Under the pieces are notes generated by a model. That model was given only the letters and a program-made list of their open reading frames with translations. It was not told the origin of the DNA and did no database searches. This document shows, piece after piece, positions 957 through 46,848 of a DNA stretch of 64,000 nucleotides (the first letter of the stretch is position 1; each line of letters begins with the position of its first letter). The stretch comes from an uncultured Candidatus Saccharibacteria bacterium (GTDB lineage: Bacteria > Patescibacteriota > Doudnabacteria > UBA920): the NCBI GenBank assembly GCA_964505635.1, contig CAZDIP010000001.1:40174-104173 (forward strand), in the 5' to 3' direction. The position numbers and the translations under genes were made by a program.

Positions 957-1027
957 GCGAGATTAGTACAGTGGTAGTATACTTGCTTCCCAAGCAAGAG
1001 AGGCGGGTTCGCCCCGCAGCATTTGTC
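957..1027 (+). pseudogene. Degenerate tRNA-Gly(CCC)-like copy. The acceptor 5' strand, D-arm and anticodon arm are intact, but the T-arm and 3' acceptor are defective.
   Basis: GCGAGAT-TA-GTAC/GTAT D-arm, anticodon stem CTTGC/GCAAG with loop TTCCCAA (anticodon CCC). The following T-arm cannot form a 5 bp stem with a 7 nt loop, and the 3' end does not pair with the 5' acceptor. Confidence 0.35.
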
Positions 1028-17620: not shown

Positions 17621-19624
17621 TTAGCCTTTCAAGAATTTTACAAGCAACAAAGCTACAATGTTTATAATTTTGATCATCGGGTTAATTGCCGGGCCGGCTG
17701 TGTCTTTGTAGGGGTCGCCTACGGTGTCGCCGGTAACCGCGGCTTTGTGGGCATCTGAGCCTTTGCCGCCAAAACTGCCTTCCTCAATATATTTTTTAGC
17801 ATTGTCCCAGGCAGCGCCTCCGGTAGTCATGGAAATACCGACAAACAAACCGGTGACTATGGAGCCGACCAAAAGTCCGCCCAAAGCTTCGGCGCCTAAA
17901 ACAAACCCGACTGCCACCGGCACAATTACGGGGATTAAAGCCGGTACCACCATTTCTTTAATTGCGGCTTTAGTAACAATGTCCACGGCTCTGGAATAGT
18001 CGGGTTTGCCCGTGCCTTCCATTATGCCTTTTATTTCCCTAAACTGCCTGCGCACTTCTTCTACCACCGCCTTTGCGGCATTTCCAACCGCAGACATGGC
18101 AATGCTGGCAAAAAGATAGGGGAGGAGTCCGCCTATGAGAAGGCCAACTAAAACGCGGCTGTCGGAAAGGTCAAAAACCGCGCTTATGCCTTCTAACTTT
18201 AATTCCTGGGTGTAAGCGGCAAAAAGTACCATGGCCGCAAGTCCGGCACTGGCAATAGCGTAGCCTTTGGTAACTGCTTTGGTGGTGTTGCCTACGGCGT
18301 CTAACGGGTCGGTAACGTCCCTGACAGATTTATCTAGTCCGGCCATTTCCGCAATGCCTCCCGCGTTGTCGGTTATGGGCCCAAAAGCGTCTATAGCAAC
18401 CACAATGCCGGTTAAGGAAAGCATGGACATAACAGCCAGGGCAATGCCGTACAAACCTGCAAGCTGGTAGGCGGCTAAAATAGCCAGCACAATTACGATT
18501 ACCGGAGCCGCGGTAGACTGCATGCCCACGGCCAGCCCTTTAATAATGTTGGTGCCGTGGCCGGTGGTGGAAGCCTCCGCAATGTCTTTGACCGGAGAGA
18601 AATTTTTGGCCGTGTAGTATTCAGTAATAAACACTACGGCCGCCGTAACAACCAAACCGATTAAAGAGGCGTAATAAAGGTTTATGGGGCTGTAAAGGCC
18701 ATTATTTTGCATTAAGCGCATGGTAATGGGGTAAAAGGCAATAGCGCTTAAAATGCCCGATACCGCAAAGCCTTTGTACATCGCGCCCATAATGTTATTT
18801 GATTTGCCTAAGCGCACGAACCAAGTGCCAATAATGGAAGTAATAATGGAAGCAGCGCCTATTAATAGAGGATAAATTATTGCGTTTGAATTTGAAGAGT
18901 CGGTAAAAATAAACGAGCCTAAAAGCATAACCGCTACAGTGGAGACGGCGTAGGTTTCAAACAAGTCAGCGGCCATGCCGGCGCAGTCGCCCACGTTGTC
19001 GCCCACGTTGTCGGCTATAACGCCTGGGTTTCGCGGGTCGTCTTCAGGGATATTGCTTTCTATTTTACCTACCATGTCTGTTCCTACGTCCGCGCCTTTG
19101 GTAAATATGCCTCCGCCAAGCCTGGCGAATACGGAAATTAAGGAAGAGCCAAAAGCCAGACCCGCTAAGGCAGATAAATCTTTGGTTAAAGCGTAAAAAC
19201 CGGCTACGGACAAAAGTCCCAAGCCTACCACGAACAAGCCGGTTACCGCGCCGCCTTCAAAAGCTAAAGACAGTGCTGCGCCTAGGCCCTTTTTGGCTGC
19301 TTCGGCTGTTCTGACATTTGCGCGCACGGAAATATTCATGCCTATAAAACCGGCAACAGCGGAAAGCGCGGCGCCGATTACAAAAGCGGCCATGGTAGAG
19401 GTGGAAAAGCCTCCAAAAAACATAAGCGCTAAAATAGCCACAGCCACTAAACCCACGGTTTTATATTGCCTGGAAAGATAGGCTTTGGCGCCGGCTTGAA
19501 TAGCTTTTGCTATTTCCAGCATCTTGCCTTCGCCTTGCGGAGATTTTAAGATTTTCCAAATTAAAAACGCCCCGTAAAGTAGCGCTAAAATCGCCGCACC
19601 TAACACATAAGCCATGTAGTTCAT
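17621..19624 (-). CDS. hppA: Membrane-bound proton-translocating pyrophosphatase (H+-PPase)
   Basis: 667 aa multi-TM protein with [15 protein letters not shown] and [14 protein letters not shown] motifs. Confidence 0.9.
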
Positions 19625-20302: not shown

Positions 20303-20750
20303 TTTTTTTAGGGCTTTTTTATTTCTAGCTTTGAATTAGTAAGTAGCAAAATTTTAATCTTCGACTTATATGGAGAAGCTAAAATTTTGGCTTAAAAGCT
20401 CAATATTATTCGACCCTGTGGAGAATAATATTGAGTTTCGTAATTCATGGTTCCAACTGATTCCCAGTTCAGTTTTATTAAAGCAAAGTTATTTTGTTTT
20501 GTCAAAAAGTTTATCCAAGCCGGCATTTTGCCCGCAGTAGTAAAGATTTTTGGTCAGGTTAACGCAAAAGCCCGGGTTTTTTTGCAAGTAGGAATACTTG
20601 GGCAAAAACCAGTATAAAAAGGCTGCCACCAGAAATATAACCAGGTAGAAAAAAAGTTTTAGAAGTTTAAACATAAAGTCTATTTCTATTCTACCATACT
20701 TGATAAAATAAGGTAAAAATTTTATAATATTGTTTGTTAAGCATGTATAT

Positions 20751-20825
20751 TGGGGTGTAGCCAAGCGGTAAGGCAAACGGCTCTGAACCGTTCATTCCTA
20801 GGTTCGAATCCTAGCACCCCAGCCA
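20751..20825 (+). tRNA. tRNA-Gln (anticodon CTG)
   Basis: Acceptor TGGGGTG/CACCCCA, anticodon stem AACGG/CCGTT with loop CTCTGAA, T arm GGTTCGAATCC, and discriminator G plus CCA encoded. Confidence 0.85.
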
Positions 20826-22283
20826 CTTCTTATCATCGTGTGCTTTTACGATGCCAGCGAACACGGGTTTGAGCGTGAACATTGGCGTTTTTTGTTTCAA
20901 ACGGCAGTTCTGAAGAATGAAGTTCAGGAATTGCCTTTTTTCATTTGGTTCAGAACTTTCAAAGATTGAAAACGCACGCTTAGAAATATCCAGTATTCTA
21001 GCGGCGATTAAATAATGATTTTCATCAGCCTTGCTATGCTCGGCAATTTGCTGGGCAATGTCGGCCTGTTTTTCTTTATACTCTTTCAACTTTCTGTCAT
21101 ACATTTCGGGAGTAATACTACTGTCCATTTTTTCATCAAACATTTTGCTTATCCGGTCATCAATCTTGTTATACTCGGCTTGTAAGTTAGCAATGGCCTG
21201 CCTGTAAAAGTCCTGTTCGGCTTCAGTAGCCTTTCGTAAGCCCTTAACTACATAATCAATGCCTGCTTGGGGCAATTCTAAGCGTTTGAGCGTGTCATAA
21301 ATAGGCTCTAGCAAGACTTTTTCCGGCACATAGAGCCGTTTGCACTTGCCTCGGTAATTGGTGCAACTGTAATAGGTATATTTGCCCTTAGCTGTTTCGG
21401 GCGTAATTGTGCAGTTGCATACATCGCAACTTACTAGGCCTCTAAAAATAAAAGGTTTGGCCGCATACTGGAATGGTTTTTTATTCCAGCTCTCTCTGAC
21501 CTTTTGGCATTTCAAAAATAATTGTTTGGAAATTAAAGTTTCGTAATGGTGCGGATATTCAATGCCCTTAACCAACATAATGCCATAGTAAAAAGGTTCG
21601 CTTAAAATCTGTTCTATTTGGCTGGTTGATAGAGCCTTGCCTGACTTGGCCGTTAAGCCTAAATTTTTTACCAACTCGGAAATGGTTTTCATTGAGTATT
21701 TGCCGGTAGCATATAGCTCAAAAACTTTAACAACTAAAAAGCCTTTGTCTTGGTCAACAATAACATTGCTTTTGTCTTCATCATCCCTAAAATTTAAGTA
21801 GCCAATAGGGGCTTGGCCAATACATTCGCCTCGCTTTAGTTTTTGCTCAATACTGCGCTTAACATTATCGCTTAATTGCAAAACATAACTTCTTGCAAAC
21901 ATTACGGCCATATCCCATTGCAAAAGTTGCGAGCTGTTTGCGTCTTTGGTTAAAACTAAATTTTCTCTTACAAAGTGCAATTCAACTTTGCCTTGTTTCC
22001 GCAAGTCATCCAATACAACGCTTTCCTTAAAACTTCTTTGCAGCCTATCTACTGTTTCAACAACAAGCGCAAGCGTTTCTTTTGAGTTCTTTATAAGTGT
22101 TAAAACCTTTTCAAATTTTTTTCGGGTATCGTGAGTAGAACTCTCGGCAATTTCAAAAATGACTGGTGCTTCCAGTCCTTTTTTGTTTGCATATTCTTTC
22201 AACCGCCTAACCTGCGCCGGATTGGAATGGTCTTTTTCTTCCTGCTCTTTGGTTGAAACACGAGCTAAAATTATTGCTTTCAT
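20811..22283 (-). CDS. Large serine recombinase (phage-type integrase)
   Basis: N-terminal resolvase domain with the catalytic Ser in ILARVSTKEQ, a recombinase domain, a Cys-rich zinc ribbon CDVCNC...CTNYRGKC and a C-terminal coiled coil. 490 aa. Confidence 0.9.
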   Translation of the reverse strand: MKAIILARVSTKEQEEKDHSNPAQVRRLKEYANKKGLEAPVIFEIAESSTHDTRKKFEKVLTLIKNSKETLALVVETVDRLQRSFKESVVLDDLRKQGKVELHFVRENLVLTKDANSSQLLQWDMAVMFARSYVLQLSDNVKRSIEQKLKRGECIGQAPIGYLNFRDDEDKSNVIVDQDKGFLVVKVFELYATGKYSMKTISELVKNLGLTAKSGKALSTSQIEQILSEPFYYGIMLVKGIEYPHHYETLISKQLFLKCQKVRESWNKKPFQYAAKPFIFRGLVSCDVCNCTITPETAKGKYTYYSCTNYRGKCKRLYVPEKVLLEPIYDTLKRLELPQAGIDYVVKGLRKATEAEQDFYRQAIANLQAEYNKIDDRISKMFDEKMDSSITPEMYDRKLKEYKEKQADIAQQIAEHSKADENHYLIAARILDISKRAFSIFESSEPNEKRQFLNFILQNCRLKQKTPMFTLKPVFAGIVKAHDDKKWLGC

Positions 22284-25200
22284 ACGGATTTGAAGTTATT
22301 AATTAGCTCCAAATCCGAGTTAGAATTTATCCCATACAGATTATAGACAATTTTATCAATTTCAATAAGGCATCTGTTTATTTTTTCCGAAATAAGAATT
22401 AAATTATCCTTTTCTTTCAGAATTAAATTTACAGCAGTAATTTTTTTATCAGTTTCAATTTCCTTAGACGCATACATACCTATGCTGTCGTCCAATTCGG
22501 TTAAATCCTTTATAGTCTTTGGCAGTTCATTAATGTGGAGTTCAAAATTTAATAACTGTAATAATTTTTTTTCTTGATTTTCTTTATTGGTAATTTCTTC
22601 TTTTAATTGGTAATAAAGTTTTTTGAAATTATTTTTTATGTCTGAATTAATTTTGTCTAATTTTAAGGGTATGCTCCTTATTAAATCAGGGGAAAAGTTA
22701 ATGCCTCCGCCCATTCCTGAAGTAGAATGTTTGTTTTTTAGATAATAAGTTATTAGCTTTGAGTTGAGAATGCAAATCAAAGTATATGGGTCTACTGATT
22801 CTTTAAAATTGTTTATTACTGAAGTAGATTTGCCTGCAACAAACTCATTTTTATCGTCTAAAATACATTCAAAATGCCTAATCCCAGCTACTATAATTTT
22901 TACATTATCAAATTTTTGAAACCTTTTAGGGAATTGTTTTTTAAAATCTTCTTTTTGGACGACTGGGTATAAATATTTATTTTTCAGATAAGCTGTTTTT
23001 TGAATACCCCAGAGAGTATAGTATTTTTCTATTGTCCCTGTGTTAATCAATTTTAAATAGTCTGAATTGTCATTAATTTTTAAGTCCTTGATTAAATCAA
23101 TCAATTCGTAAGCTTCACCTGTGGTAAATGCTCCAAATACGTCTGCAAAATCACCAAGCGGCAAGCTCCCATTTTCTACATCCTTAAGCAAGCCCCTGTT
23201 CTCAACAAAAATGTCGCCCCAATTGTCATCCGACAATTCTTCTAGTTTATTAGATTCTTCAGAATACTCTGAACTGCTTGTAAATTTAGAAACGACAAAA
23301 TTATCAAACGACCCTTTTTTTATTGAAAAAATAATTGAGCTAAGGTTTGCATCTTCAAAAACTTTTACAGGCGAGAGGTCGGCCAGTAATACGACATTAT
23401 TTTTAATAAGCTTCCTTAATGATTTGCCATAATCCATTGAAAGCCATTTATTTGGGACAATCATACTTAAGTAGCCATTCTTTTTTAATAGCTCAAAGGA
23501 TTTTTCAATAAATGGGATATACAAGTCCCAGTTGCCTGTGGCTGATTGATACGCTTGTGAAATAAATTTTCTACCTAATGGGTCATTTTTAACCATTGAT
23601 TCTGAATCAACATACGGCGGATTTCCAACTATTACATCAAATCCGCCAGCAGTAATAATCTCTGGAAATTCTTTTGCCCAATCAAAAGCCCGTTCGCCTG
23701 CAAATTCTGGGTTATCAATAAGGCTATTACCGCACTTGATATTATTTTTTAAAGTAGTTAGCTTTTGTCCTTTTTTAGCCGATTTAAACCAAAGAGATAA
23801 TTTGGTAATTTCAACACTTTCGGGGTTTAAATCTACGCCGTAAATATTATTTTGTAGCAAAGATTTTACATAATCTTCGGTATCCCAAAGACTTGTAGCT
23901 CCGACTAAAGAGCCGATAATGTTTGAAATTCTTTTATTTTCAGCTAGCAAATAATCAAAAACTTTCACTAAAAATGCCCCAGAGCCGCAAGCAGGGTCTA
24001 ATACTTTGATATTGAGAATAAGATTCCTATATTCTGTGTATGCCTCAACCATTTTTTTATTATAGGTTTCGTCCTTTTTTATTCTGTTGCTATCAAGCTT
24101 ATGTTTAGCAAAGACATCCTGCTCCATTTTTTCTAAAAATTTTACAAGCGAATTTTTTACAATATAATCTACAATATATTCAGGAGTATAATAAACTCCT
24201 TCCTTTTTGCGCTTCGTTTCATTTTTTTTGACTTCCGGCGTTTCGCTTTCCGAATACTTTTTTAATCTTTCAAGGTCTACGATTGATTGCTCAAAAATAT
24301 GGCCGAGAATGTTTACAGACAAATCCTCTTCAAAATCAAATTTTGAAAGTTCTACAAAGTGTTTACAAATCTCATTGCTTATTTTTAAGTTGTTTATTTC
24401 ATCATCGTGTTTAAATAACTCGCCATTATAGCCGTCCGGCACGCCAAGTTTTTGGCTACCCTCATCTACTGCTTTAAAGAATTTTTTTAGTGTGTCCCAT
24501 ATCGGCTCATCCAATGCGCCTTTTTGGGCGTATTCCACAACCTCGTAAAGTTTACCTTGTGGGAGCAATCCGGCATCCTCAAAAAAACAGATAAAAACTA
24601 TACGGTCTATAATTTTTTGTGCTTTTTCAACAACGTGGTTATAAAAATTACTTCGTTGGATTTTCTCATTATTTTGTATTATGTCCTTAATTAGTTGCTC
24701 TCGTAATTGCTTGTATTCTTTATAAAATTTATTAGTTATTTTTTCCTGTTCAATCCGTATGGCAGACAATAATTTTTCAGTATTAGTTTGCCCTTTTTCA
24801 GTAATAAAATTATTCGCGCAAAATAAGAAGTAAAACTTTTTAAAATTAAAGTAGTCATCGTTAGGGTTAATCAGGTCTTTAAGCGTAAATTTTTCATAAT
24901 CCAATTGGTTATCTCTAAAAATCCGTATTTCAAAAAAATTGGTTGCAATAACAAAACCACAATCCTTATATTGAGGTTTGTATTTAAAAGCTTGTTGAAT
25001 TGGGCTTAGGTTGCCCTCACGCTGTTGAGATTTATCAAGAGATGTATTAGCATCTTTTATCTCAACTACGGCAATAACTCTTTTATCATTTTTGCTAAAA
25101 TATCCGAGAGTTGCATCGGGCATTTGACCACCACCTGTTTCAACATTGTCTTTTGGTTGGATTGAATAAATATTTGCTGGAAATGGGGTGTAGTCTAATA

Positions 25201-25381
25201 CTTTAATAAAAAAATCTGAATTAAATGCTTGCTCGCATTGCGTTTCATTTTTTTTCTGCAGCTCCTTTGTATTATAAGCGTCATACCACGATTGAATAAT
25301 CCCAAGCTTTTGCTCAAGATTAGGAATCTCAAATTTTTCAAGTTCCCCTTTAATCATTTTGTTTTTGAAAAGTCCAGCCAT
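22280..25381 (-). CDS. Type IIG restriction-modification enzyme (fused endonuclease and N6-adenine methyltransferase, MmeI-like)
   Basis: 1033 aa. N-terminal PD-(D/E)xK-like D...VVEIKD. SAM motif I VLDPACGSGAFLV and motif IV VIVGNPPY, then a large C-terminal TRD. Confidence 0.85.
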   Translation of the reverse strand: MAGLFKNKMIKGELEKFEIPNLEQKLGIIQSWYDAYNTKELQKKNETQCEQAFNSDFFIKVLDYTPFPANIYSIQPKDNVETGGGQMPDATLGYFSKNDKRVIAVVEIKDANTSLDKSQQREGNLSPIQQAFKYKPQYKDCGFVIATNFFEIRIFRDNQLDYEKFTLKDLINPNDDYFNFKKFYFLFCANNFITEKGQTNTEKLLSAIRIEQEKITNKFYKEYKQLREQLIKDIIQNNEKIQRSNFYNHVVEKAQKIIDRIVFICFFEDAGLLPQGKLYEVVEYAQKGALDEPIWDTLKKFFKAVDEGSQKLGVPDGYNGELFKHDDEINNLKISNEICKHFVELSKFDFEEDLSVNILGHIFEQSIVDLERLKKYSESETPEVKKNETKRKKEGVYYTPEYIVDYIVKNSLVKFLEKMEQDVFAKHKLDSNRIKKDETYNKKMVEAYTEYRNLILNIKVLDPACGSGAFLVKVFDYLLAENKRISNIIGSLVGATSLWDTEDYVKSLLQNNIYGVDLNPESVEITKLSLWFKSAKKGQKLTTLKNNIKCGNSLIDNPEFAGERAFDWAKEFPEIITAGGFDVIVGNPPYVDSESMVKNDPLGRKFISQAYQSATGNWDLYIPFIEKSFELLKKNGYLSMIVPNKWLSMDYGKSLRKLIKNNVVLLADLSPVKVFEDANLSSIIFSIKKGSFDNFVVSKFTSSSEYSEESNKLEELSDDNWGDIFVENRGLLKDVENGSLPLGDFADVFGAFTTGEAYELIDLIKDLKINDNSDYLKLINTGTIEKYYTLWGIQKTAYLKNKYLYPVVQKEDFKKQFPKRFQKFDNVKIIVAGIRHFECILDDKNEFVAGKSTSVINNFKESVDPYTLICILNSKLITYYLKNKHSTSGMGGGINFSPDLIRSIPLKLDKINSDIKNNFKKLYYQLKEEITNKENQEKKLLQLLNFELHINELPKTIKDLTELDDSIGMYASKEIETDKKITAVNLILKEKDNLILISEKINRCLIEIDKIVYNLYGINSNSDLELINNFKSV

Positions 25382-25382
25382 A

Positions 25383-25558
25383 TTATTTGGTTTTAGCCTT
25401 ATCTAAAAATTTATTAAATTCTATTTTATCAATTCTAAATTCCTTGCCAATTTTATAAGCCTTAAGCTGTTTAGCTTTGATTTTTCGGTATATGGTCATT
25501 ATGTTGACCTTGAGGGCTTTGGCCAGTTCTTCGGCGGTGTAAAAGGGGTCTTGTTGCA
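25383..25558 (-). CDS. Excisionase/AlpA-like HTH DNA-binding protein (58 aa). It is not in the ORF track.
   Basis: Manual translation: MQQDPFYTAEELAKALKVNIMTIYRKIKAKQLKAYKIGKEFRIDKIEFNKFLDKAKTK. This matches the Xis/HTH_17 pattern (LAxxLxVSxxTIYRxIKxGxLPAxKIGxxxRI). Confidence 0.55.
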
Positions 25559-25614
25559 TAGGGGTATTATAGTTTACTATTCTTTACATTGCAAATGACG
25601 GGCTGTGGGTAAGT

Positions 25615-26772
25615 CTAATGCAAACTCATAGGGTCAAAAGCGTCCTTTGGCGGCTCAATTTTAGCGGCCTGCGGCAAGGCATAAGGTTTAAACTGCTGTA
25701 AGGCCGTTTTTATCTGCTTAATGTATTCGTGGCAATTTTCAATGATTGCTGTTTTATTTAGCAGTTTAATTTTAACTCCTATTCTATCCCAGCTACGCTT
25801 GCTTGCCCTTTTGCCCAACATTTGGCGCAAATCTTTAACGCCGCCTTTGTCTTTGCAAGCCATTTTGAGCAGGGCTAATTGAAAAATAGTTGCGGTTCTC
25901 ATTTTAGGATTGTTTTTAAATAGCATTCTTAAAATCTTTTGTGGTGTATCTTCAAAGTCAAAAATAAATAGACTCGGTTCAATGTAAGTTTGAAAATAAT
26001 CTAGCAGTATTTTTTGGCATACTGCCAATTTAAAAATGTCGGAAAAAGTTGGATTTTGAGCAAAGCCAAGTCTTGCTAAAACAGCGTTCATTTTTGGCTT
26101 TTCAGATAGCCTAACTTCCATTCTTAAAATTTCGGGTTTTGCTTTCCTTTCCAAAAAATCAAAAAGACTTTGCCGTTGTATTTTTTGGTCTACGTCAATA
26201 GCCTTGTTTTCGCTTTTCTCTAAATCTTTCATTTTGTCATAAAAAACTAACGAATGGGACTTAGAGTAATACTGCAAGCCGTGTCCGCCATTTCTAAATG
26301 TAGTTTTTTGCAAATCCATTTTTTCGGTTAAGTTTATTTTTTCAAACTCCTTAATAATTCCCGTTGCGGAATAACCGCCAGTTATGAGTATGTTTTTTGA
26401 GGGATGAAAAGAGGCAACTATCGCCCGTCTAATAACATTTTCCGCCACGCTAACTCCCATACTGGAAACTTTTTCTTGCAGCATTGCAACTTCCAAATCA
26501 AAATCATTTTCCGTAATTTCTATCAGATTATTGTTATTGATAACTTTAGCGGCTGAAGCCTCAATCCTTAAAGTCGCCTCTGCTCCACGCTTGTAAATAA
26601 GCAGCTTGGGTTTATATTTGCCGGAGCGTTTATCTTCGGCTGTGGGGTTGTTTACATACTTGCGGTAAAAAGTCCTGTCTAAGTGCATTTTTTCTGTTGA
26701 GGGACTAAACATATCGTGCCGCACAATCCGGTAATAGCCCTTTGGAATATCTAAAATATAAGTATCTAACAT
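25615..26772 (-). CDS. Hypothetical protein, possibly a rolling-circle replication initiator (Rep_trans-like)
   Basis: 385 aa. LVFYDKMKDLEKSE resembles the Rep_trans xIYDKxxE motif. Otherwise unassigned. Confidence 0.35.
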   Translation of the reverse strand: MLDTYILDIPKGYYRIVRHDMFSPSTEKMHLDRTFYRKYVNNPTAEDKRSGKYKPKLLIYKRGAEATLRIEASAAKVINNNNLIEITENDFDLEVAMLQEKVSSMGVSVAENVIRRAIVASFHPSKNILITGGYSATGIIKEFEKINLTEKMDLQKTTFRNGGHGLQYYSKSHSLVFYDKMKDLEKSENKAIDVDQKIQRQSLFDFLERKAKPEILRMEVRLSEKPKMNAVLARLGFAQNPTFSDIFKLAVCQKILLDYFQTYIEPSLFIFDFEDTPQKILRMLFKNNPKMRTATIFQLALLKMACKDKGGVKDLRQMLGKRASKRSWDRIGVKIKLLNKTAIIENCHEYIKQIKTALQQFKPYALPQAAKIEPPKDAFDPMSLH

Positions 26773-26802
26773 TTCATTACTTCTTTAAAAATAAATAGTG
26801 CA

Positions 26803-27060
26803 TTAAAACAAGGTTTTAGCCTTATCTAAAACAGCTTTTTCTATATCTTTTGCCAGCATTTGGTTAATAGGGTGGTAGATATTTAGCCCTCGGTCGCCAA
26901 TCTTTTTAGTAGGATAAGTTAGCCGGTATCCCGTGCCGTCCAGCCGTGTGTAAACGCCGATTGAGCCAAGATACAGGCAATCGTCCAAAACAAGGCTCGC
27001 AAAGGCTACAAGGCCGCCTTGAGGTTTTACCGGTGTTATATTGACCTCGCTAATCTTCAT
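26803..27060 (-). CDS. SpoVG family protein
   Basis: MKISEVNITPVKPQGGLVAFASLVLDDCLYLGSIGVYTRLDGTGYRLTYPTKK...IYHPINQMLAKDIEKAVLDK aligns well to SpoVG. The start is trimmed from the ORF-track start at 27114 to the MKISEV Met. Confidence 0.65.
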   Translation of the reverse strand: MKISEVNITPVKPQGGLVAFASLVLDDCLYLGSIGVYTRLDGTGYRLTYPTKKIGDRGLNIYHPINQMLAKDIEKAVLDKAKTLF

Positions 27061-27211
27061 AAAGTTGCGAGTTATATTTTCTATCCATTTCAACCAGCCA
27101 GCCAAATGCGCCAATCAAATCCTGCTTGGCTTCAAAAACTTCCTGCTCGTTCAACTCCTTGCCGGATAGCTTTTCTAATATTACTTTGTCGTGGCTTGTT
27201 ATTTCGGACAT
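27050..27211 (-). CDS. Small hypothetical protein (53 aa) upstream of SpoVG
   Basis: MSEITSHDKVILEKLSGKELNEQEVFEAKQDLIGAFGWLVEMDRKYNSQLYED. It overlaps the SpoVG start by a few codons. Confidence 0.3.
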   Translation of the reverse strand: MSEITSHDKVILEKLSGKELNEQEVFEAKQDLIGAFGWLVEMDRKYNSQLYED

Positions 27212-27305
27212 AAAAAAACTGGTTATAAAACCAGTCTAAATGTTTATGCCTTTGCCGTATAAGAAATTATTGAACTACGCTAAAAGAAATTAGGAAATTA
27301 TTGAC

Positions 27306-28058
27306 CTACACTAGTTTCCTAAATCTTCTTCTTTTTTCAAGGCTAATTATTTTGCCAATTTCGTTATAGACCAGCCCATTGTTTGGGTGGCTTTTATCAA
27401 GTTCTTTTTTTAGCTCTTTGAGGCTTAAATTTTTATGTTCCCAAATGAAATCGGTAATTTTGCGGTCTAATTTTCTCTGTCTAAAATTGACCTTGTTTTC
27501 TCTGTAATCTTCTATAAAACTAACAATTATATCCCAATTTTTGTTAATGTAATCTAACACATCCCTTTTCGTGGCAAACTTATGAATGTTAATGCTCACG
27601 GGGTAGGCCGATACAAAAGTCTGCAAGCGATGATTTATCATTGGCGGCATCCACGCATCTTCAGGGTGCAGTAGCAAATCAACAGTATCTCTCATTACAG
27701 CCAAATCGCATACTTCGCCCAAGTAATCGCTTTTGCCCATAATATCTTCAAGTAATATACCGTGCATTAATTCATCATCCAGACCGTATTCTTCGGCGAT
27801 TTCATCGTATATTTTCCAATGCGGTATATAATCATCTTCGGGAAAAAGTGTCATAAATTCTTCCGACAAGGCTTTGTATTTATCCAGTATTACCTCAAAC
27901 TGCTTAACCCTCTTATCTTTATCGGAATTTTTGGTTAATTTACGGAGTTGCTTAACTTTGGCCATAAAGTGTTTGTTGCGCTTTAGGTCTGCCAAATACT
28001 GCTGCAACTTTTTATGCCCTTGAGTTTCTTTTCTTATTATTTGCATTACATTTTTCAA
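27306..28058 (-). CDS. Hypothetical protein
   Basis: 250 aa ORF with no recognisable motifs. Confidence 0.5.
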   Translation of the reverse strand: MKNVMQIIRKETQGHKKLQQYLADLKRNKHFMAKVKQLRKLTKNSDKDKRVKQFEVILDKYKALSEEFMTLFPEDDYIPHWKIYDEIAEEYGLDDELMHGILLEDIMGKSDYLGEVCDLAVMRDTVDLLLHPEDAWMPPMINHRLQTFVSAYPVSINIHKFATKRDVLDYINKNWDIIVSFIEDYRENKVNFRQRKLDRKITDFIWEHKNLSLKELKKELDKSHPNNGLVYNEIGKIISLEKRRRFRKLV

Positions 28059-28132
28059 AATTAGCTTTATTCCTTATATTTTATCAATAAGTTCTGATTT
28101 GTGGAAATTCAATAAAAAATGGTATAATATGC

Positions 28133-28771
28133 TTGCATTATTATATGGAGCAAATACCAATGATTACCTCACTTTGTAAAAAAAGTGTTCAGGCAATAAA
28201 CTATTTTGCCCGTAAAAAAGACGGCCCAATAAATAAAATGAAGGCAATTAAGCTCATTTATTTTGCCGATAGATATCATCTTAGGAAATATGGCAGACCT
28301 GTTGTTGGGGATGATTATTGGGCGATGAAATTGGGGCCGGTTGCTTCAAACACTCTAGATACAGCTAATTTAGCTAGTAATAGTCTTGAAAAAGACTGTT
28401 TTCAATATGCCAAAACATTTATTTCACATCCAAAGGGCGATATAAAAATGGAGAATATTATCTCTAAAGAAAATGTTGACTTAAGCATTTTTTCTCAAAC
28501 AGATATAGACGCATTAGAAATAGCATTTAAAGAATTTGGGGACAAAGACCAATTTGAGCTTGCAGACACTTCACATATTTATCCCGAATGGTTAAAGCAT
28601 AAACACGATATTTTGGTTGAGGGTAAAAAAAGGGTTAAAATGGACTACTTAGACTTTTTCTTAAACCCAAGAAGTGGCGGCTCTCATATTTTTGATTTAC
28701 CTGAAGAACATCTTGATTTAGCAAAAAATTCTTACTTAGAAAGCCAAGATGCCGATTTAATTTTGGGATAG
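28133..28771 (+). CDS. Panacea-domain (DUF4065, SocA-like) putative antitoxin
   Basis: KAIKLIYFADRYHLRKYGRPVVGDDYWAMKLGPVASNTLD matches the Panacea/DUF4065 core. Confidence 0.65.
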   Translation: MHYYMEQIPMITSLCKKSVQAINYFARKKDGPINKMKAIKLIYFADRYHLRKYGRPVVGDDYWAMKLGPVASNTLDTANLASNSLEKDCFQYAKTFISHPKGDIKMENIISKENVDLSIFSQTDIDALEIAFKEFGDKDQFELADTSHIYPEWLKHKHDILVEGKKRVKMDYLDFFLNPRSGGSHIFDLPEEHLDLAKNSYLESQDADLILG

Positions 28772-28782
28772 AAATACCGCCT

Positions 28783-29235
28783 ATGCAGATTAACCCTGAA
28801 ATTTCTATCCCTATTTGTATTGAACAAGGCTCAATATATCTTTACCAATTAGATACTGTGAATAAGGACGGGACGCCATATAGCGGAAACCGTTTTTTTA
28901 TAGTTCTTAACCTAAACCCTCAAACCGATGAGATTTTGATACTTTCCACAATCACAACGAAAATTGATAAACAAAAAGAATTTATTAAAAAAATCGGCGA
29001 AGACCCAAGCACATTAGTTTCTATTACTGTATCCGATTTCCCTAACCTATCTCAAGACAGTGCCGTAAATTGCAACCGTATTTACGAAACAACGCTTAAA
29101 GAGTTAGTAGAAAAGGTTAAGAATGGTGGCAAAATTTTTAATCACAATTTACCTAAAACCGTTATGAGCGCCTTGATTAGCGGAGTGTTAAAAAGTAAAC
29201 AGGTATCTCCTGAAGTCAAACAGAGATTAATTTAA
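28783..29235 (+). CDS. Hypothetical protein, a candidate cognate toxin (PanT) of the upstream Panacea antitoxin
   Basis: 150 aa. It begins 12 nt after the antitoxin stop on the same strand. No known domain recognised. Confidence 0.4.
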   Translation: MQINPEISIPICIEQGSIYLYQLDTVNKDGTPYSGNRFFIVLNLNPQTDEILILSTITTKIDKQKEFIKKIGEDPSTLVSITVSDFPNLSQDSAVNCNRIYETTLKELVEKVKNGGKIFNHNLPKTVMSALISGVLKSKQVSPEVKQRLI

Positions 29236-29312
29236 TAAGCTGGCTGCAAGTTTAACAAGCTTAAATCCTGCTCCAGTTCTGCCCAGTTCAAAGTTCTAAA
29301 CATATTCAATAA

Positions 29313-29373
29313 GGGCAGCCACGTCGCTCGCGAGCGACGTGGCCAGCCTGCCCTGTCGTTCGAGAACGACAGG
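29313..29373. repeat. Nested perfect palindromes. The first is GCCACGTCGCTCGCGAGCGACGTGGC (26 bp) enclosed by GGGCAG/CTGCCC, and the second is CCTGTCGTTCGAGAACGACAGG (22 bp).
   Basis: Read directly from the sequence. GC-rich in an AT-rich intergenic region upstream of a GIY-YIG gene. Confidence 0.8.
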
Positions 29374-29415
29374 ACCACAGAATAAGGTTGGCCATGTTTC
29401 TATCGTTCTTGTACG

Positions 29416-29676
29416 ATGTGGTATTTTTACGTTTTGCAAAGTAAAAACAAACCTGACTACTTTTATAAAGGATCAACAAACGACTTAAAGCGTCGTTTAG
29501 AGCAGCATAATAAAGGTGATGTAGATTCTACCCGCCCATACAAGCCTTTTAAGCTGGTATATTATGAGGCTTATGTTTCCGAGCATGCTGTGCGCTTTAG
29601 AGAATCATCCGTAAAAACCAGCGGGTCTGTTTCAACGCCTTTGATGAAACGAATAAAAGAAAGTTTAAAAGATTGA
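29416..29676 (+). CDS. GIY-YIG nuclease family protein (YhbQ/UPF0213-like)
   Basis: WYFYVLQSKNKPDYFYKGSTNDLKRRLEQHNKG...YKPFKLVYYEAY. Confidence 0.75.
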   Translation: MWYFYVLQSKNKPDYFYKGSTNDLKRRLEQHNKGDVDSTRPYKPFKLVYYEAYVSEHAVRFRESSVKTSGSVSTPLMKRIKESLKD

Positions 29677-29724
29677 GCAGCCATCAAGGCTTAGTATCGT
29701 AGAGGCCGAGGAGAGTTTATTGAG

Positions 29725-30240
29725 ATGAATATTCCAAAGTTTACAAAAAATCAGTGGATTGCAATTGCAGCAATAGTCGTGCCGGCTATTTTAGGATTTA
29801 TTTACTTTATTTTCCAAAAATCTAGCCTTATCCAATCAGGTAAAATTAATACAATTGGGCAATCTGGCGGTACTAATTTAGTCATAAATGATGAAGCAAC
29901 ATATACTTGGGTGAATGAAACAAATTGGAAACCAGATGGAAAACAGGTCAACTTGTTATTTATTGCAAATGGACCTGTTATACCAGTAAGTCCCTGTTTA
30001 TATATTGATTCTGATGCAGAAGTCAAAAATGCTGGTCCAATTGGCTATTCTGTGCGTTGGCAAAAAATCGATCCCCCAAAGAACTATGTTGGATGTTTTA
30101 GCGGTCTTAACAATACAACTACATTCCAAGTATTTTTTGACAAGACACCAACTAAAATTAAGGCAAGCTTGATACAGGAAGATACAGGAATTAACAATAA
30201 TAAAACAGAAACACATTTTACAGCTCCTGTATTTCAATGA
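29725..30240 (+). CDS. Hypothetical membrane-anchored protein
   Basis: 171 aa with an N-terminal TM helix. Confidence 0.45.
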   Translation: MNIPKFTKNQWIAIAAIVVPAILGFIYFIFQKSSLIQSGKINTIGQSGGTNLVINDEATYTWVNETNWKPDGKQVNLLFIANGPVIPVSPCLYIDSDAEVKNAGPIGYSVRWQKIDPPKNYVGCFSGLNNTTTFQVFFDKTPTKIKASLIQEDTGINNNKTETHFTAPVFQ

Positions 30241-30474
30241 AAACGACCCTAACCGGGGCGCATCAAAGAAAAACCTCAAAAAACCCTTACAATATCCCTA
30301 AAGGCTTGGTTCTAAACCGAGTCACACAGCTACGAAAAATCACTAATAAACATCGGTGGTTTTTTGTTGAATAGTCAGTAGCTTACTAACTTTTTTGGAT
30401 GATATATAATTTATTTATAAAGATTAACGTTCGCTAAAAAGAATTATAAAAATAATAATTCTATTAACTGAATT

Positions 30475-30903
30475 ATGTTACCTGACGAAAAATCTCAACG
30501 TTTTGTAGCTATTTTGAATAAAAAAATTGAAACAGGCAAACTTATGAATGCCTTAGGTCATATGACAGCTGGCTTGGCCGGTGGTTTTGGCAAAGGTCAG
30601 GAAATGCACTTTTTGGAGTACAAAGATAAAGATGGCGGTGTTCACCCGTATATATCGCACTTTCCTTTTATAGTTCTCAAAGCGGAAAATTCTAATCAAA
30701 TTCGAAAGATCAGGAATGAAGCCTTATCGCGTAATGTAATGTTTACAGACTTCACTAGCACAATGACTGTTGGAACTTCGGCAGAGCAGCGGGAACGAAC
30801 AAAAAATACGCCGGAATTAGAATTGGAGTATTATGGCATTTGTTTGTTTGGCCAGACCGATACTTTAAAAGAGTTTACAGGGAAATTTTCCTTATTTAAT
30901 TAA
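30475..30903 (+). CDS. Hypothetical protein (DUF2000-like)
   Basis: 142 aa. The MLPDEKSQRFVAILNKK...NALGHMTAGLAGG pattern is reminiscent of DUF2000. Confidence 0.4.
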   Translation: MLPDEKSQRFVAILNKKIETGKLMNALGHMTAGLAGGFGKGQEMHFLEYKDKDGGVHPYISHFPFIVLKAENSNQIRKIRNEALSRNVMFTDFTSTMTVGTSAEQRERTKNTPELELEYYGICLFGQTDTLKEFTGKFSLFN

Positions 30904-32520: not shown

Positions 32521-33756
32521 CTAAATCGAGTAGGTGCGACCTTTGTGTTGGTCGATCAGGATCTGGAAGAGTCGGTGGCCGATCAATTCATGCAGCGTCA
32601 GTAGTTCCTTGTGCGCTTCCGTGATGGCCGCAACATCGCGCGGGTCAGAAACTTCGCCGCCTGCTTTCAATGCATCGGTGGCTTCGCGGATGACGGGATC
32701 TTCCAGGACTTCTCCCGCCATCTCCCAAAGAGTAATGAAGCGATCGACGGCGGTGGGGAAGCTGACAGCAAATACTCCCCAGTTGCTGGTGGTGCGCGGC
32801 GGCTTGTAGTCAAGGTTGAACGGTCCGTTGTAGCCGTGGCTGCGAAGCAGGATAAGCACATTTAGCCAATCGAGAGGATTCACCAACCCGACGGCGATGT
32901 CGACGTCGTGTTTGAGGCGATAGCCGTCATTGATGTCGAAGTGCCACAGCTTACCTGCGCTGATAGCGCGGGCAAGGGCTGCGCGCGGGGCGCCGCCCCA
33001 CATCAGTTCGTGCAAATATTCCGGGTTGAGCCCCACCATTTCGGGATGCTTCAGCAGGCCACTGCCGATGAAAGCGAGCATGGAGTCGGAAGTGGGCAGC
33101 AGAATTTCGGCCTGGGGTTCAAACGGCTTGGCCTCCATGCAGTGCTTCAGTGTGGGTTGCCCCAATTTGCCGGCGAGTTCAATATCGGCTTCGCAGGCGG
33201 CATTGAGACCCTCGGCGTACCACTGCAATGCTTGGGTCTCTTCCACGGCTCCCTGGATCTGGTAGCCGAAGGAGCCGGGCCAGTAAACAGCGAATCGCGC
33301 GCCCAACTCGTGGCCGATTTTGACAGTATTCTTGAGGCGCTCGGCGGCGTATTGGCGAACGTAGGGGGATTCCGCGGCGGGTCCGGCGGAAAACACGGCG
33401 TGGTAGAAAGTTTCGGTGGTGACCATGGAGCAGGCGAGTCCGTTGGCCTTAAGTGTGTCGCCGATGCGTCCGACGATTTCATCCTGCTTGCTGGTGAAGA
33501 GATTGCCCGCTGGGATGACGTCCGTGTCATGGGTGGCCCAGTAGCCAATGCCGATTTCGGCATAGTGGCGGATGACTTCTTCGAAGGTGACGGGCTTGCG
33601 GGTGGGGGCGTGAAAGAGAGCTTGGCCTTCATAGGCGCCGGCCCATTGGGGCCCCGTGATGAAGTACTTGCGGCGCTGGTCCGGAGAGTAAGAACCGCCG
33701 CACGAACGCACTAGGCGTTCGACCAGCGGAAGCTGGTACTCTAATTTAATAGGCAT
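32521..33756 (-). CDS. xylA: Xylose isomerase. The gene is GC-rich and its composition is foreign to this genome.
   Basis: MPIKLEYQLP...FITGPQWAGAY...WATHDTDVIP...AVYWPGSFG...MEAKPFEPQAEILLPT...LNPEYLHELMWGG...WHFDINDG...LDYKPPRT aligns motif-for-motif with class I xylose isomerases. A perfect SD AGGAGGA precedes the ATG at 33756. The ORF track extends to 33852. Confidence 0.85.
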   Translation of the reverse strand: MPIKLEYQLPLVERLVRSCGGSYSPDQRRKYFITGPQWAGAYEGQALFHAPTRKPVTFEEVIRHYAEIGIGYWATHDTDVIPAGNLFTSKQDEIVGRIGDTLKANGLACSMVTTETFYHAVFSAGPAAESPYVRQYAAERLKNTVKIGHELGARFAVYWPGSFGYQIQGAVEETQALQWYAEGLNAACEADIELAGKLGQPTLKHCMEAKPFEPQAEILLPTSDSMLAFIGSGLLKHPEMVGLNPEYLHELMWGGAPRAALARAISAGKLWHFDINDGYRLKHDVDIAVGLVNPLDWLNVLILLRSHGYNGPFNLDYKPPRTTSNWGVFAVSFPTAVDRFITLWEMAGEVLEDPVIREATDALKAGGEVSDPRDVAAITEAHKELLTLHELIGHRLFQILIDQHKGRTYSI

Positions 33757-33959
33757 AGTTTTCCTCCTATGCTTTTTGTTTTCCGTCTGTCTTCGGAAAG
33801 TAAATAAATTGCCTGAAAATAGGGAGACAGACCCCTTTAAGCAAAAAATCAAGCCAATGCTTGACCTTTTATCTTAATGGTTTTTTCGTGCCTTTGTCAA
33901 TTATGGTTTTTAATTGTGAGTAAAAATGTAGTTGACGATTTTGTATTAAAGTGTTAAAC

Positions 33960-42352: not shown

Positions 42353-42580
42353 TAACTTTTGTTTTTTTGTTTTAGGCCATTTTTTTATTTCAGCCTCACG
42401 TTTTAAGGCCTTTATTTTGGTTTTGAATTTTTCAAAGTAGATTATTTTTCCGCCGCCGCGGCTTTTTACATATTTAGACCCCTTGCCTTGGTTATGAGCC
42501 AGTTCCCGTTTTTTAAGGTCATTGGTAATGCCGGCATAAAGGGACTTGTCTTTGCATAAAAAAAGGTAAAAGTAGTACAT
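42338..42580 (-). CDS. GIY-YIG nuclease family protein (YhbQ/UPF0213-like), 80 aa
   Basis: MYYFYLFLCKDKSLYAGITNDLKKRELAHNQGKGSKYVKSRGG. The ORF-track N-terminal extension (42581-42853, TTG start) is GC-rich and not protein-like, so it was trimmed. Confidence 0.75.
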   Translation of the reverse strand: MYYFYLFLCKDKSLYAGITNDLKKRELAHNQGKGSKYVKSRGGGKIIYFEKFKTKIKALKREAEIKKWPKTKKQKLLKTP

Positions 42581-46773: not shown

Positions 46774-46848
46774 TGGTAGCGCTACGGGGAATCGAACCCC
46801 GATTTGGTGGATGAGAACCACCTGTCCTAACCATTAGACGATAGCGCC
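46774..46848 (-). tRNA. tRNA-Glu (anticodon CTC)
   Basis: rc: GGCGCTA-TC-GTCTAATGGTTAGGACA-GGTGG-TTCTCAT-CCACC-AAAT-CGGGGTTCGATTCCCCG-TAGCGCT-A-CCA. Confidence 0.85.

What the first reader, a model, noticed from the sequence alone, without database searches (positions are those of the whole stretch)
20751..30332. Integrative element at tRNA-Gln carrying a serine recombinase, Type IIG RM, excisionase, Rep-like gene, SpoVG, a Panacea TA pair and a GIY-YIG
The large serine recombinase gene terminates inside the tRNA-Gln 3' end. Its last codons, WLGC-stop, are the reverse complement of the tRNA 3' acceptor. That is the classic signature of an element that regenerates the tRNA on integration. Rightward cargo is typical of a small integrative or phage-satellite-like element. 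A degenerate copy of the tRNA 3' end at 30308-30332 suggests a ~9.5 kb extent. The SD-poor, AT-rich composition matches the host, so the element is long resident or from a related donor.
Basis: partly seen in the sequence, partly recalled or inferred. Interest (0 to 1): 0.65.

Follow-up and report, generated by a model that had tools for sequence, protein, structure and literature searches.

The report
Serine-recombinase episome at a tRNA end

Summary
The core observation holds. tRNA-Gln(CTG) lies at 20751-20825, and a 490-aa large serine recombinase (LSR, 20811-22283, minus strand) ends 15 nt inside its 3' end. The proposed right boundary (30308-30332) is wrong.

A public contig from the same organism (L175, 99.8% identical) joins the tRNA-Gln 3' end directly to window 29322 onward. 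This is the empty site. The element is therefore 8496 bp, flanked by a 7-nt core, CAGCCAC (20820-20826 and 29316-29322). GIY-YIG and the 171-aa gene are host genes.

Relatives share a backbone of SpoVG, a rolling-circle Rep-like protein, an excisionase-type HTH, a swappable restriction-modification slot, and the LSR. At least 47 of 88 related LSR genes end in a tRNA 3' end, and two relatives assemble as circles of about 9-9.7 kb.

Crossover appears to fall within the tRNA's terminal CCA, so almost none of the tRNA is rebuilt. The LSR reading frame crosses attP: the excised form would encode 515 aa with a conserved tail, which integration replaces with the tRNA-derived WLGC.

I rate this a new variant of a known kind. 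tRNA targeting by serine integrases is barely documented.

The parts
20751..20825 (+). Host tRNA-Gln(CTG). Its 3' part (T arm, acceptor stem, CCA) serves as the B half-site of attB. A promoter-like site lies at 20700-20728.
   Evidence: ARAGORN; Rfam tRNA 65.9 bits; promoter scan 11 of 12 matches.
20820..20826 (+). attL core CAGCCAC, shared with attR. Crossover is inferred to lie within the CCA at 20823-20825.
   Evidence: Sequence; the empty-site contig L175 overlaps both flanks exactly over this core; the L085 core is only CCA.
20811..22283 (-). Large serine recombinase, 490 aa in the integrated state. The last 4 codons and the stop (20811-20825) are host tRNA DNA. The element-encoded part starts at about 20826. 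The 3' coding end also serves as the P' arm of attP.
   Evidence: Pfam Resolvase, Recombinase and Zn_ribbon_recom; phrog_95 integrase 3.6e-64; homology with L082A stops after TGGCTGG.
22280..25381 (-). Type IIG restriction-modification enzyme (cargo). Its stop codon overlaps the LSR start codon by 4 nt.
   Evidence: Pfam Eco57I/MmeI; PADLOC REase_MTase_IIG 4.8e-116. Relatives carry Type III, Type I or no RM at this slot.
25383..25559 (-). 58-aa excisionase-family HTH (HTH_17). Candidate recombination directionality factor or operon regulator. A promoter-like site lies at 25595-25566.
   Evidence: Pfam HTH_17 2.4e-11; TIGR01764 46.7 bits; conserved in L085, L170 and L173; promoter scan.
25615..26772 (-). 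385-aa rolling-circle replication initiator-like protein with a Rep_trans / G2P-like fold.
26803..27114 (-). SpoVG-like DNA/RNA-binding protein, a conserved backbone gene upstream of the Rep-like gene.
   Evidence: Pfam SpoVG 37.3 bits; present in L084, L085 and L174.
27306..28058 (-). 250-aa protein of unknown function (accessory).
   Evidence: No match in Pfam, PHROGs, PADLOC or NCBIfam; partial DNA homology in L084.
28133..28771 (+). Panacea (SocA-like) domain protein, a putative antitoxin.
   Evidence: Pfam SocA_Panacea 3e-19.
28783..29235 (+). 150-aa protein 11 nt downstream of the Panacea gene. Putative toxin partner, unverified.
   Evidence: Position only; no family match.
29232..29321 (-). 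P arm of attP. It also holds the 29 codons plus stop (WLPLLNMFRTLNWAELEQDLSLLNLQPAY*) that would extend the LSR to 515 aa in the excised circle. It contains the T-loop-like octamer GTTCTAAA.
   Evidence: Conserved block 29263-29321 shared with L082, L083 and L084; ORF reconstruction; collinear with the real attP of circle L168; third-codon-position bias.
29316..29322 (+). attR core CAGCCAC, the true right end of the element.

Best explanation
Window 20826-29322 (8496 bp, register ambiguous within the 7-nt core CAGCCAC) is an integrated copy of a small episome of Patescibacteria. A large serine recombinase inserts it at the very 3' end of a tRNA gene, here tRNA-Gln(CTG).

Shown:
- Exact boundaries, from an empty site in the same organism.
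- A conserved backbone in relatives: SpoVG, Rep-like protein, HTH_17, an RM slot, and the LSR.
- Circular copies of relatives.
- tRNA-3'-end adjacency across the recombinase family.

Inferred:
- The LSR recombines attP (P arm 29232-29321 joined to the P' arm, which is the LSR's own 3' coding end) with attB (the tRNA T arm, acceptor stem and CCA, plus a variable downstream flank). Crossover lies inside the encoded CCA, so the tRNA stays host-derived and intact.
- The P arm carries a T-loop-like octamer 5 bp further from the crossover than the real T loop in the B arm. This matches the known attP/attB half-site offset of serine integrases.
- After excision the Rep_trans-like protein replicates the circle by rolling circle.
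- The HTH_17 protein is the likely directionality factor or regulator.
- The RM enzyme (translationally coupled to the LSR) and the Panacea pair are defence or addiction cargo.
- Because attP lies inside the LSR ORF, the excised form encodes a 515-aa protein with a conserved C-terminal tail. Integration replaces that tail with four tRNA-encoded residues.
For: Boundaries:
- L175 (Logan SRR11567540) positions 1-34 equal window 20796-20829, and positions 25-1185 equal window 29316-30478 at 99.8%.
- L176 shows the occupied attR at 100% identity.
- DNA homology with the 87%-identical element in L082/L083 stops exactly at TGGCTGG at the LSR end and at ...GGGCAGCCA at 29321.

Circles:
- L168 has a 141-nt terminal overlap equal to the assembler k-mer, giving a 9734-bp circle. 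L169 is the same circle, permuted.
- Joining the ends of L173 gives a continuous 704-aa Res ORF.
- The real attP of L168 is collinear with the window's reconstructed attP.

Family:
- 47 of 88 LSR ORFs end in the 3' end of an opposite-strand tRNA (Asn 33, His 8, Gln 2, Arg 2, Thr 1, Met 1). Eight carry long attP-type tails. Many of the rest have tRNA-like tails.

Core and offset:
- The shared core is CAGCCAC (window), GAGCCAAC (L084) and CCA (L085).
- The octamer sits at 21-28 nt in P arms and 16-23 nt in tRNA B arms.

Long form of the LSR:
- Reconstructed ORFs are 515 aa for both the window and L084.
- The motif LP.L..FRT.[DN]W appears in P0011, P0042, P0090, P0094, P0098 (partial) and P0111.
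- Substitutions beyond the half-site fall 12/8/37 by codon position.

Other:
- Rep. Cargo.
- Host: best named AspRS hits are Doudnabacteria and Patescibacteria at 73-77%.
Against: - No circular or attP junction was recovered for this particular element, so its current activity is unproven.
- The crossover dinucleotide is inferred from identity blocks only. A dyad-symmetry scan of attP was inconclusive.
- The B' flanks of attB share no obvious motif between hosts. This is unusual for an LSR and is unexplained.
- In L085 the P arm is 1 nt shorter, which breaks the tail frame. The tail may therefore be conserved partly as a DNA site.
- AF2 gives the tail low confidence, pLDDT about 47-59.
Confidence: 0.88

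Rival explanations
1. One reading: a ~9.5 kb element running from the tRNA to a degenerate tRNA 3' copy at 30308-30332. It would include GIY-YIG and the 171-aa gene, and would carry its own replacement tRNA 3' end.
For: The site 30303-30332 is the best non-self match to the tRNA 3' end in the window (19 of 30). It has a T-arm-like stem, CTTGG/CCGAG, with tRNA-type spacing.
Against: - The empty-site contig keeps GIY-YIG, the 171-aa gene and the 30303-30332 site next to the tRNA.
- A random site scores 18 of 30.
- Rfam finds no tRNA hit there at E<=10.
- Relatives and the circular attP place the end at 29321.
- GIY-YIG homologues are host-side in L084 and L085.
Confidence: 0.02
2. The element has the boundaries given above, but in this genome it is an immobile relic. 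The integrated 490-aa LSR lacks its natural C-terminal tail and can no longer excise. The empty site then reflects a strain that was never invaded rather than excision.
For: - No attP junction or circle was found for this element.
- The integrated LSR is truncated relative to the excised form.
- The tRNA promoter reads antisense into the LSR gene.
Against: - All nine element ORFs are intact, and both att cores are intact.
- Flanks of the empty and occupied alleles are 99.8-100% identical, implying a recent event.
- Relatives with 53-68% identical LSRs exist as circles.
- A candidate RDF is present.
Confidence: 0.25
3. The conserved LSR 'tail' read across attP is not a functional peptide. It appears conserved only because the P arm is a protein-binding DNA site, so the ORF extension is incidental.
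For: - The most conserved residues, F-R-T, are encoded by TTTAGAAC, the reverse complement of the T-loop-like octamer.
- The L085 P arm has a 1-nt length difference that destroys the frame.
- AF2 confidence in the tail is low.
Against: - Beyond about 39 nt from the crossover, outside a typical half-site, five close pairs differ 12/8/37 by codon position, with many synonymous changes. Window versus L084 shows 6 synonymous and 3 non-synonymous codons.
- ORF lengths are conserved: 515 and 515 aa, with others at 514-519 aa.
- An amphipathic pattern after the W is kept across LSRs that are only about 50% identical.
Confidence: 0.4
4. The element is a prophage remnant or phage satellite rather than a plasmid-like episome.
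For: The LSR matches the PHROGs integrase family phrog_95. Two unannotated 6-9 kb 'Bacteriophage sp.' records carry LSRs 36-38% identical.
Against: - No capsid, terminase, portal or packaging genes appear in the window element or in the 9.7-kb circle.
- In IMG/VR the LSR finds nothing and the Rep-like profile finds only two distant hits.
- The replication protein has a plasmid-type Rep_trans fold.
Confidence: 0.07

Closest known systems
Large serine recombinase (serine integrase) elements: phages A118, phiC31 and Bxb1, and SCCmec CcrAB
   Same: Resolvase, Recombinase and Zn-ribbon architecture with a long coiled-coil. Short att sites with a tiny shared core. The P/B half-site offset is consistent with the published model of distinct domain placement on attP and attB half-sites (PMC5499577; the 5-bp figure is from my own recollection of Rutherford et al. 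2013). SCCmec also inserts at the extreme 3' end of a conserved gene.
   Different: The target is the encoded CCA end of tRNA genes. Mageeney et al. 2020 state that S-Ints are 'not known for targeting tRNA genes' and found only 14 of 297 cases, none proven (PMC7192596). attP lies inside the recombinase ORF. The B' half-site is not conserved. Characterised phage LSRs are only about 25% identical.
tRNA-targeting genomic islands and prophages with tyrosine integrases (P4-like and others)
   Same: Insertion at the 3' side of a tRNA gene, with the integrase gene adjacent to the tRNA and tRNA function preserved.
   Different: A different enzyme family and mechanism. Those elements duplicate 15-76 bp of tRNA 3' sequence (for example 25-76 bp cores in PMC8092301). 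Here only 3-8 nt are shared, and no tRNA segment is carried by the element.
Integration-dependent immunity of mycobacteriophages (Broussard et al. 2013) and SSV-type archaeal integrases
   Same: attP lies inside a coding sequence, so the integrated and excised states encode proteins with different C-termini (PMC8092301). SSV1 also targets a tRNA gene, with attP inside int (own knowledge).
   Different: In mycobacteriophages the gene is the repressor and the enzyme is a tyrosine integrase. In SSV1 the int gene is split into two large parts. Here a serine recombinase loses only its last ~28 residues. The functional consequence is untested.
Actinomycete integrative plasmids (AICEs: pSAM2, SLP1)
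   Same: Elements of about 10 kb that are integrated in tRNA genes, excise to a circle and replicate by rolling circle (PMC2440964 abstract; RCR from own knowledge).
   Different: AICEs use tyrosine integrases and carry a Tra conjugation gene. This element has neither, and its host is Patescibacteria.
Rep_trans rolling-circle initiators (pT181 RepD family) and related MOB_T relaxases (ICEBs1 NicK, Tn916 Orf20)
   Different: 6-11% sequence identity. No Pfam Rep_trans hit, only a borderline Phage_CRI hit. An extra helical C-terminal half. No match in 72,556 plasmids.

Membership tests
Large serine recombinase / serine integrase | N-terminal resolvase catalytic domain, followed by a recombinase domain and a zinc-ribbon domain with an embedded coiled-coil | tested here: met
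   Pfam Resolvase 63.1, Recombinase 47.6 and Zn_ribbon_recom 37.3 bits, all above cut-offs. Invariant S10, R8 and the Cys cluster C286/C289/C307. AF2 model of homologue P0011 shows long paired helices at 346-442.
Large serine recombinase / serine integrase | Short att sites sharing only a small crossover core, with attP and attB otherwise dissimilar | tested here: met
   The core is 7 nt in the window, 8 nt in L084 and 3 nt in L085. The arms are otherwise different.
Site-specific integrative mobile element | An unoccupied target site exists in a conspecific genome, with exact junctions | tested here: met
   L175 joins window 20796-20826 to 29316-30478 at 99.8%.
Site-specific integrative mobile element | An excised circular form carrying the attP junction | tested here: inconclusive
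   Found for relatives: L168/L169 as a 9734-bp circle and L173. Not found for the window element itself.
Classical tRNA-gene island that regenerates the tRNA | The element carries a copy of the displaced tRNA 3' segment, leaving a direct repeat of the tRNA 3' end at the far junction | tested here: not met
Only CAGCCAC is repeated. No tRNA 3' copy appears at the far end in the window, L082, L084 or L085.
Type IIG restriction-modification enzyme | A single polypeptide with an N-terminal nuclease region, a gamma-class N6-adenine methyltransferase and a C-terminal specificity domain | tested here: met
   Pfam Eco57I 163 bits and MmeI_Mtase. Weak hits to MmeI_N and TaqI_C. PADLOC REase_MTase_IIG 4.8e-116 over residues 38-694. 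Enzyme activity is not testable here.
Rep_trans / G2P rolling-circle replication initiators | Rep_trans fold with a catalytic tyrosine and metal-binding residues, plus a cognate double-strand origin | tested here: inconclusive
PanA-type (Panacea) toxin-antitoxin pair | A Panacea-domain antitoxin adjacent to a recognisable toxin | tested here: inconclusive
   The Panacea domain scores 70.4 bits. The adjacent 150-aa protein has no family match in four libraries.
Excisionase / recombination directionality factor | A small excisionase-family winged-helix DNA-binding protein encoded with the recombinase, required for attL x attR recombination | not testable with these tools
   The domain is present (TIGR01764 46.7 bits) and its position is conserved. 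An RDF role needs experiment.
Phage satellite / prophage | Capsid, packaging or helper-interaction genes, and recovery in viral datasets | tested here: not met
   No structural-gene matches. No LSR relative in IMG/VR, and only two distant Rep-like hits.

The most novel reading that the evidence does not exclude
This is a state-sensing serine integrase system built on the tRNA itself. The recombinase would read the universal T arm, acceptor stem and CCA of a tRNA gene as essentially its only specific attB half-site. It would use a T-loop mimic placed 5 bp further out in attP, and exchange strands inside the encoded CCA.

Because attP lies inside its own ORF, integration would swap a conserved ~28-residue C-terminal extension for a few tRNA-encoded residues. 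That would convert an integration-competent 515-aa enzyme into a 490-aa form with different activity or stability. This would be a serine-recombinase analogue of integration-dependent switches, operating across a large clade of Patescibacteria episomes.
Probability: 0.35. Interest if true: 0.8.

Novelty: new variant of a known kind. Interest (0 to 1): 0.62.

Why it matters
- Serine integrases are the main tools for inserting large DNA pieces into genomes, yet tRNA genes are almost undocumented as their natural targets (PMC7192596). A populous clade that recombines at the conserved CCA, acceptor stem and T arm of tRNA genes would add a new class of highly conserved landing sites.
- Related enzymes use different tRNAs (Gln, Asn, His, Arg and others). 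This offers a natural series for studying how att-site specificity is encoded.
- The element and its circular relatives are small, self-replicating, integrating replicons of Patescibacteria, a phylum with almost no genetic tools. They are obvious vector candidates.
- Placing attP inside the recombinase ORF gives a directly testable hypothesis: the integrated and excised states make different enzymes.
- The interchangeable RM slot (Type IIG, III, I or empty) shows how defence systems move between these ultra-small genomes.

Tried and rejected
- **Synteny search for an empty site.** I used the H+-PPase gene against one genome per species. The closest relative was only 79% identical, with no shared neighbours and no tRNA-Gln.
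- **Exact look-ups.** The window LSR and the 150-aa protein returned nothing.
- **tRNA 3' repeats at the far ends of relatives.** None were found. This led me to the tiny-core model.
- **Circularity of metagenome loci L082-L167.** None showed terminal overlaps.
- **L092 as a permuted circle.** Comparison with integrated relatives showed its downstream DNA is not within their 10-kb flanks, so the question stays unresolved.
- **Dyad-symmetry scan of attP to locate the crossover.** The best centres fall near the CCA but do not rise above background.
- **PDB sequence searches with the Rep-like protein and its profile.** No hits.
- **Plasmid database search with the Rep-like protein.** No match.
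- **IMG/VR searches.** I searched with the attP junction, the LSR and the Rep profile. These gave nothing, or two distant hits.
- **AF2 model of the 519-aa long-form LSR, to see whether the tail docks.** Tail pLDDT is about 47-59, so this was uninformative.
- **Cluster look-up for organism names.** None held.
- **Inovirus link via the Phage_CRI hit.** Rejected, because the element has no morphogenesis genes.

Full report
**What is there**

ARAGORN and Rfam place tRNA-Gln(CTG) at 20751-20825 on the plus strand. A 490-aa ORF on the minus strand (20811-22283) has the three domains of a large serine recombinase (LSR) above Pfam cut-offs. It ends 15 nt inside the tRNA. Its last codons TGG CTG GGG TGC TAG (W L G C stop) are the reverse complement of the tRNA's ...GCACCCCAGCCA.

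To the right lie, in order:
- a Type IIG restriction-modification enzyme (Pfam; PADLOC 4.8e-116);
- a 58-aa excisionase-family HTH (TIGR01764);
- a 385-aa protein with a borderline Phage_CRI match;
- SpoVG;
- a 250-aa unknown protein;
- a Panacea-domain protein with a 150-aa neighbour that has no family match;
- GIY-YIG and a 171-aa protein.

**Host**

The PPase gene to the left has no close relative among species representatives and no conserved synteny. The aspartyl-tRNA synthetase in the window finds its best named relatives in Candidatus Doudnabacteria and 'Patescibacteria group' MAGs at 73-77% identity. LSR and Rep-like homologues also come from Patescibacteria MAGs. The host is a Patescibacteria (CPR) bacterium.

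**The boundary**

An unrelated site reaches 18 of 30, and Rfam sees nothing tRNA-like there at E<=10. Three independent lines place the real end about 1 kb to the left.

1. The element with an 87%-identical LSR (L082/L083) is homologous to the window up to TGGCTGG at the LSR end and no further. At the other side, a conserved non-coding block at 29263-29321 is shared with L082, L083 and L084. It ends at ...GGGCAGCCA, followed by unrelated sequence in each genome.
2. A 9734-bp circular relative carries a real attP. This is L168, with a 141-nt terminal overlap equal to the assembler's k; L169 is the same circle, permuted. Its attP aligns collinearly with the window's 29321|20826 join.
3. Decisively, the Logan contig L175 from SRR11567540 also supports this. 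That sample also holds the window's left flank at 99.9% identity (L001). L175 reads TCCTAGGTTCGAATCCTAGCACCCCAGCCA|CGTCGCTCGCGAGCG.... Its positions 1-34 equal window 20796-20829, and positions 25-1185 equal window 29316-30478 at 99.8%. Every 31-mer starting in its first 24 bases spans the junction, so reads with the unoccupied site exist. L176, from another run, shows the occupied attR at 100% identity.

The element is 8496 bp, flanked by the core CAGCCAC at 20820-20826 and 29316-29322. Consistent with this, GIY-YIG homologues (36-39% identical) sit on the host side of tRNAs in L084 and L085. A paralogue also lies at 42386-42580.

**A family, not a one-off**

The LSR has more than 1,700 database relatives. 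In 88 LSR ORFs on fetched loci:
- 47 end inside the 3' end of an opposite-strand tRNA (Asn 33, His 8, Gln 2, Arg 2, Thr 1, Met 1);
- 8 carry a different, long tail;
- 12 cannot be assessed;
- many of the remaining 21 have tails that read like translated tRNA (…DSNP…) where ARAGORN calls no gene.

The closest relatives use tRNA-Gln: L170 at 81% identity and L082 at 87%. LSRs 71-72% identical use tRNA-Asn, and one 67% identical uses tRNA-His.

The backbone SpoVG, 385-aa protein, HTH_17, [RM], LSR recurs. The RM slot holds Type IIG here, Type III in L082, L084, L085 and L168, Type I in L174, and nothing in L170. The RM stop codon overlaps the LSR start codon by 4 nt both here and in relatives. 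This suggests one operon, with a promoter-like site upstream of the HTH gene.

L082 holds two elements in tandem at tRNA-Gln(TTG). Their junction is of the type P(B)-CCA-P'(A).

**Mechanism (inferred)**

The sequence shared by attL and attR is CAGCCAC in the window, GAGCCAAC in L084, and only CCA in L085. The crossover dinucleotide should therefore lie within the encoded CCA. The tRNA remains host-derived, and the element supplies at most a few bases. The 'regenerates the tRNA' reading is thus true only trivially.

Reading outward from the CCA, the tRNA arm has ATTCGAAC (the T loop) at positions 16-23. All P arms examined have TTTAGAAC or a close variant at 21-28. This 5-bp outward shift is what the structural model of serine integrases predicts for the zinc-ribbon-domain motif in attP versus attB half-sites. 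Distinct domain placement is described in PMC5499577; the 5-bp value is from my own recollection of Rutherford et al. 2013.

The B' flanks differ completely between hosts. This is unexplained and may mean the tRNA half-site dominates recognition. A symmetry scan could not locate the centre independently.

**The ORF crosses attP**

Joining 29321 to 20826 extends the LSR from 490 to 515 aa, with the tail WLPLLNMFRTLNWAELEQDLSLLNLQPAY. The same operation in L084 also gives 515 aa, with the tail WLRLVSAFRTVDWAELEQELELLTLQITV.

The circular L168 and L173 encode such long forms. So do several 514-528-aa database proteins carrying the motif LP.L..FRT.[DN]W. F-R-T is encoded by the T-loop-like octamer, so part of this conservation reflects the DNA site.

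Beyond the half-site (codons 13-25), however, five close pairs differ 12/8/37 by codon position, with many synonymous changes. This argues for translation. One relative, L085, breaks the frame, and AF2 gives the tail low confidence. I therefore rate a functional state-dependent C-terminus as plausible but unproven.

The nearest analogies are integration-dependent immunity, where attP lies inside the repressor gene of phages with tyrosine integrases (PMC8092301), and SSV-type integrases (own knowledge).

**Replication and cargo**

There are no capsid, packaging or conjugation genes, and the family is essentially absent from IMG/VR. How the element moves between cells is unknown.

**Novelty**

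Mageeney et al. 2020 state that S-Ints were 'not known for targeting tRNA genes'. They found 14 of 297 cases and called for experimental proof (PMC7192596). My full-text searches found no description of this clade or of an LSR whose ORF spans attP. That absence is weak evidence, because the library is incomplete. I rate the finding a new variant of a known kind.

**Verdict**

The extent, the GIY-YIG membership and the 'tRNA regeneration' rationale are wrong. The corrected picture is more interesting than the original.

Noticed in passing
window 29318-29343 and 29352-29373: Two perfect palindromes lie immediately after the tRNA end and attR core. The first has 13-nt arms with no loop (GCCACGTCGCTCG/CGAGCGACGTGGC) and begins with the tRNA's own GCCA. 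The second has 10-nt arms. In the empty site they directly follow tRNA-Gln. They may be a terminator or processing signal, or part of the B' half-site.
   Followed up: partly
window 47299-48609 (+), next to tRNA-Glu 46774-46848 (-); GC 0.32-0.34 at 45-47 kb: A group II intron reverse transcriptase/maturase (TIGR04416, 2.6e-47) sits beside another tRNA gene in a low-GC stretch. This may be a second mobile insertion.
   Followed up: no
window 957-1021 (+): Rfam calls an additional tRNA (38.1 bits) directly upstream of tRNA-Gly 1028-1101. ARAGORN did not report it.
   Followed up: no
window 42386-42580 (-): A second small GIY-YIG paralogue, 33% identical to the one at 29416-29676. Small GIY-YIG genes also sit next to tRNA genes in L084 and L085, so they may be independent selfish or tRNA-associated genes in these genomes.
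   Followed up: partly
window 17621-19624 and 32521-33852: The H+-pyrophosphatase and a xylose-isomerase-like TIM-barrel gene have GC 0.50-0.53 in a genome of about 0.40. The PPase's best relative (79%) shares no neighbouring genes. Either horizontal acquisition or strong codon bias could explain this.
   Followed up: partly
L082 4619-14825: A tandem array of two different LSR elements at tRNA-Gln(TTG). The inner junction is a P arm of one element fused through CCAGCCA to the P' arm of the other. Either attL or attR of a resident element can therefore serve as a target for a second element.
   Followed up: partly
L088 2218-2263; also L108, L123, L161, L167: These LSR tails translate tRNA-like sequence (for example WLGSWDSNPGPIG, which is the tRNA-Asn 3' half), yet ARAGORN finds no tRNA there. 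A recent paper reports group I introns hiding tRNA-Asn genes in Patescibacteria (PMC13011429). These may be intron-containing targets.
   Followed up: no
L174 1-11584: A more distant relative (LSR 50% identical, with the long attP-type tail) keeps SpoVG. It replaces the Rep_trans-like gene with a Prim-Pol/DUF5906 primase-helicase and carries a Type I RM system. The replication module is therefore also exchangeable.
   Followed up: no
It could be chance or a very old tRNA or att remnant. It is not statistically distinguishable from background.
   Followed up: yes
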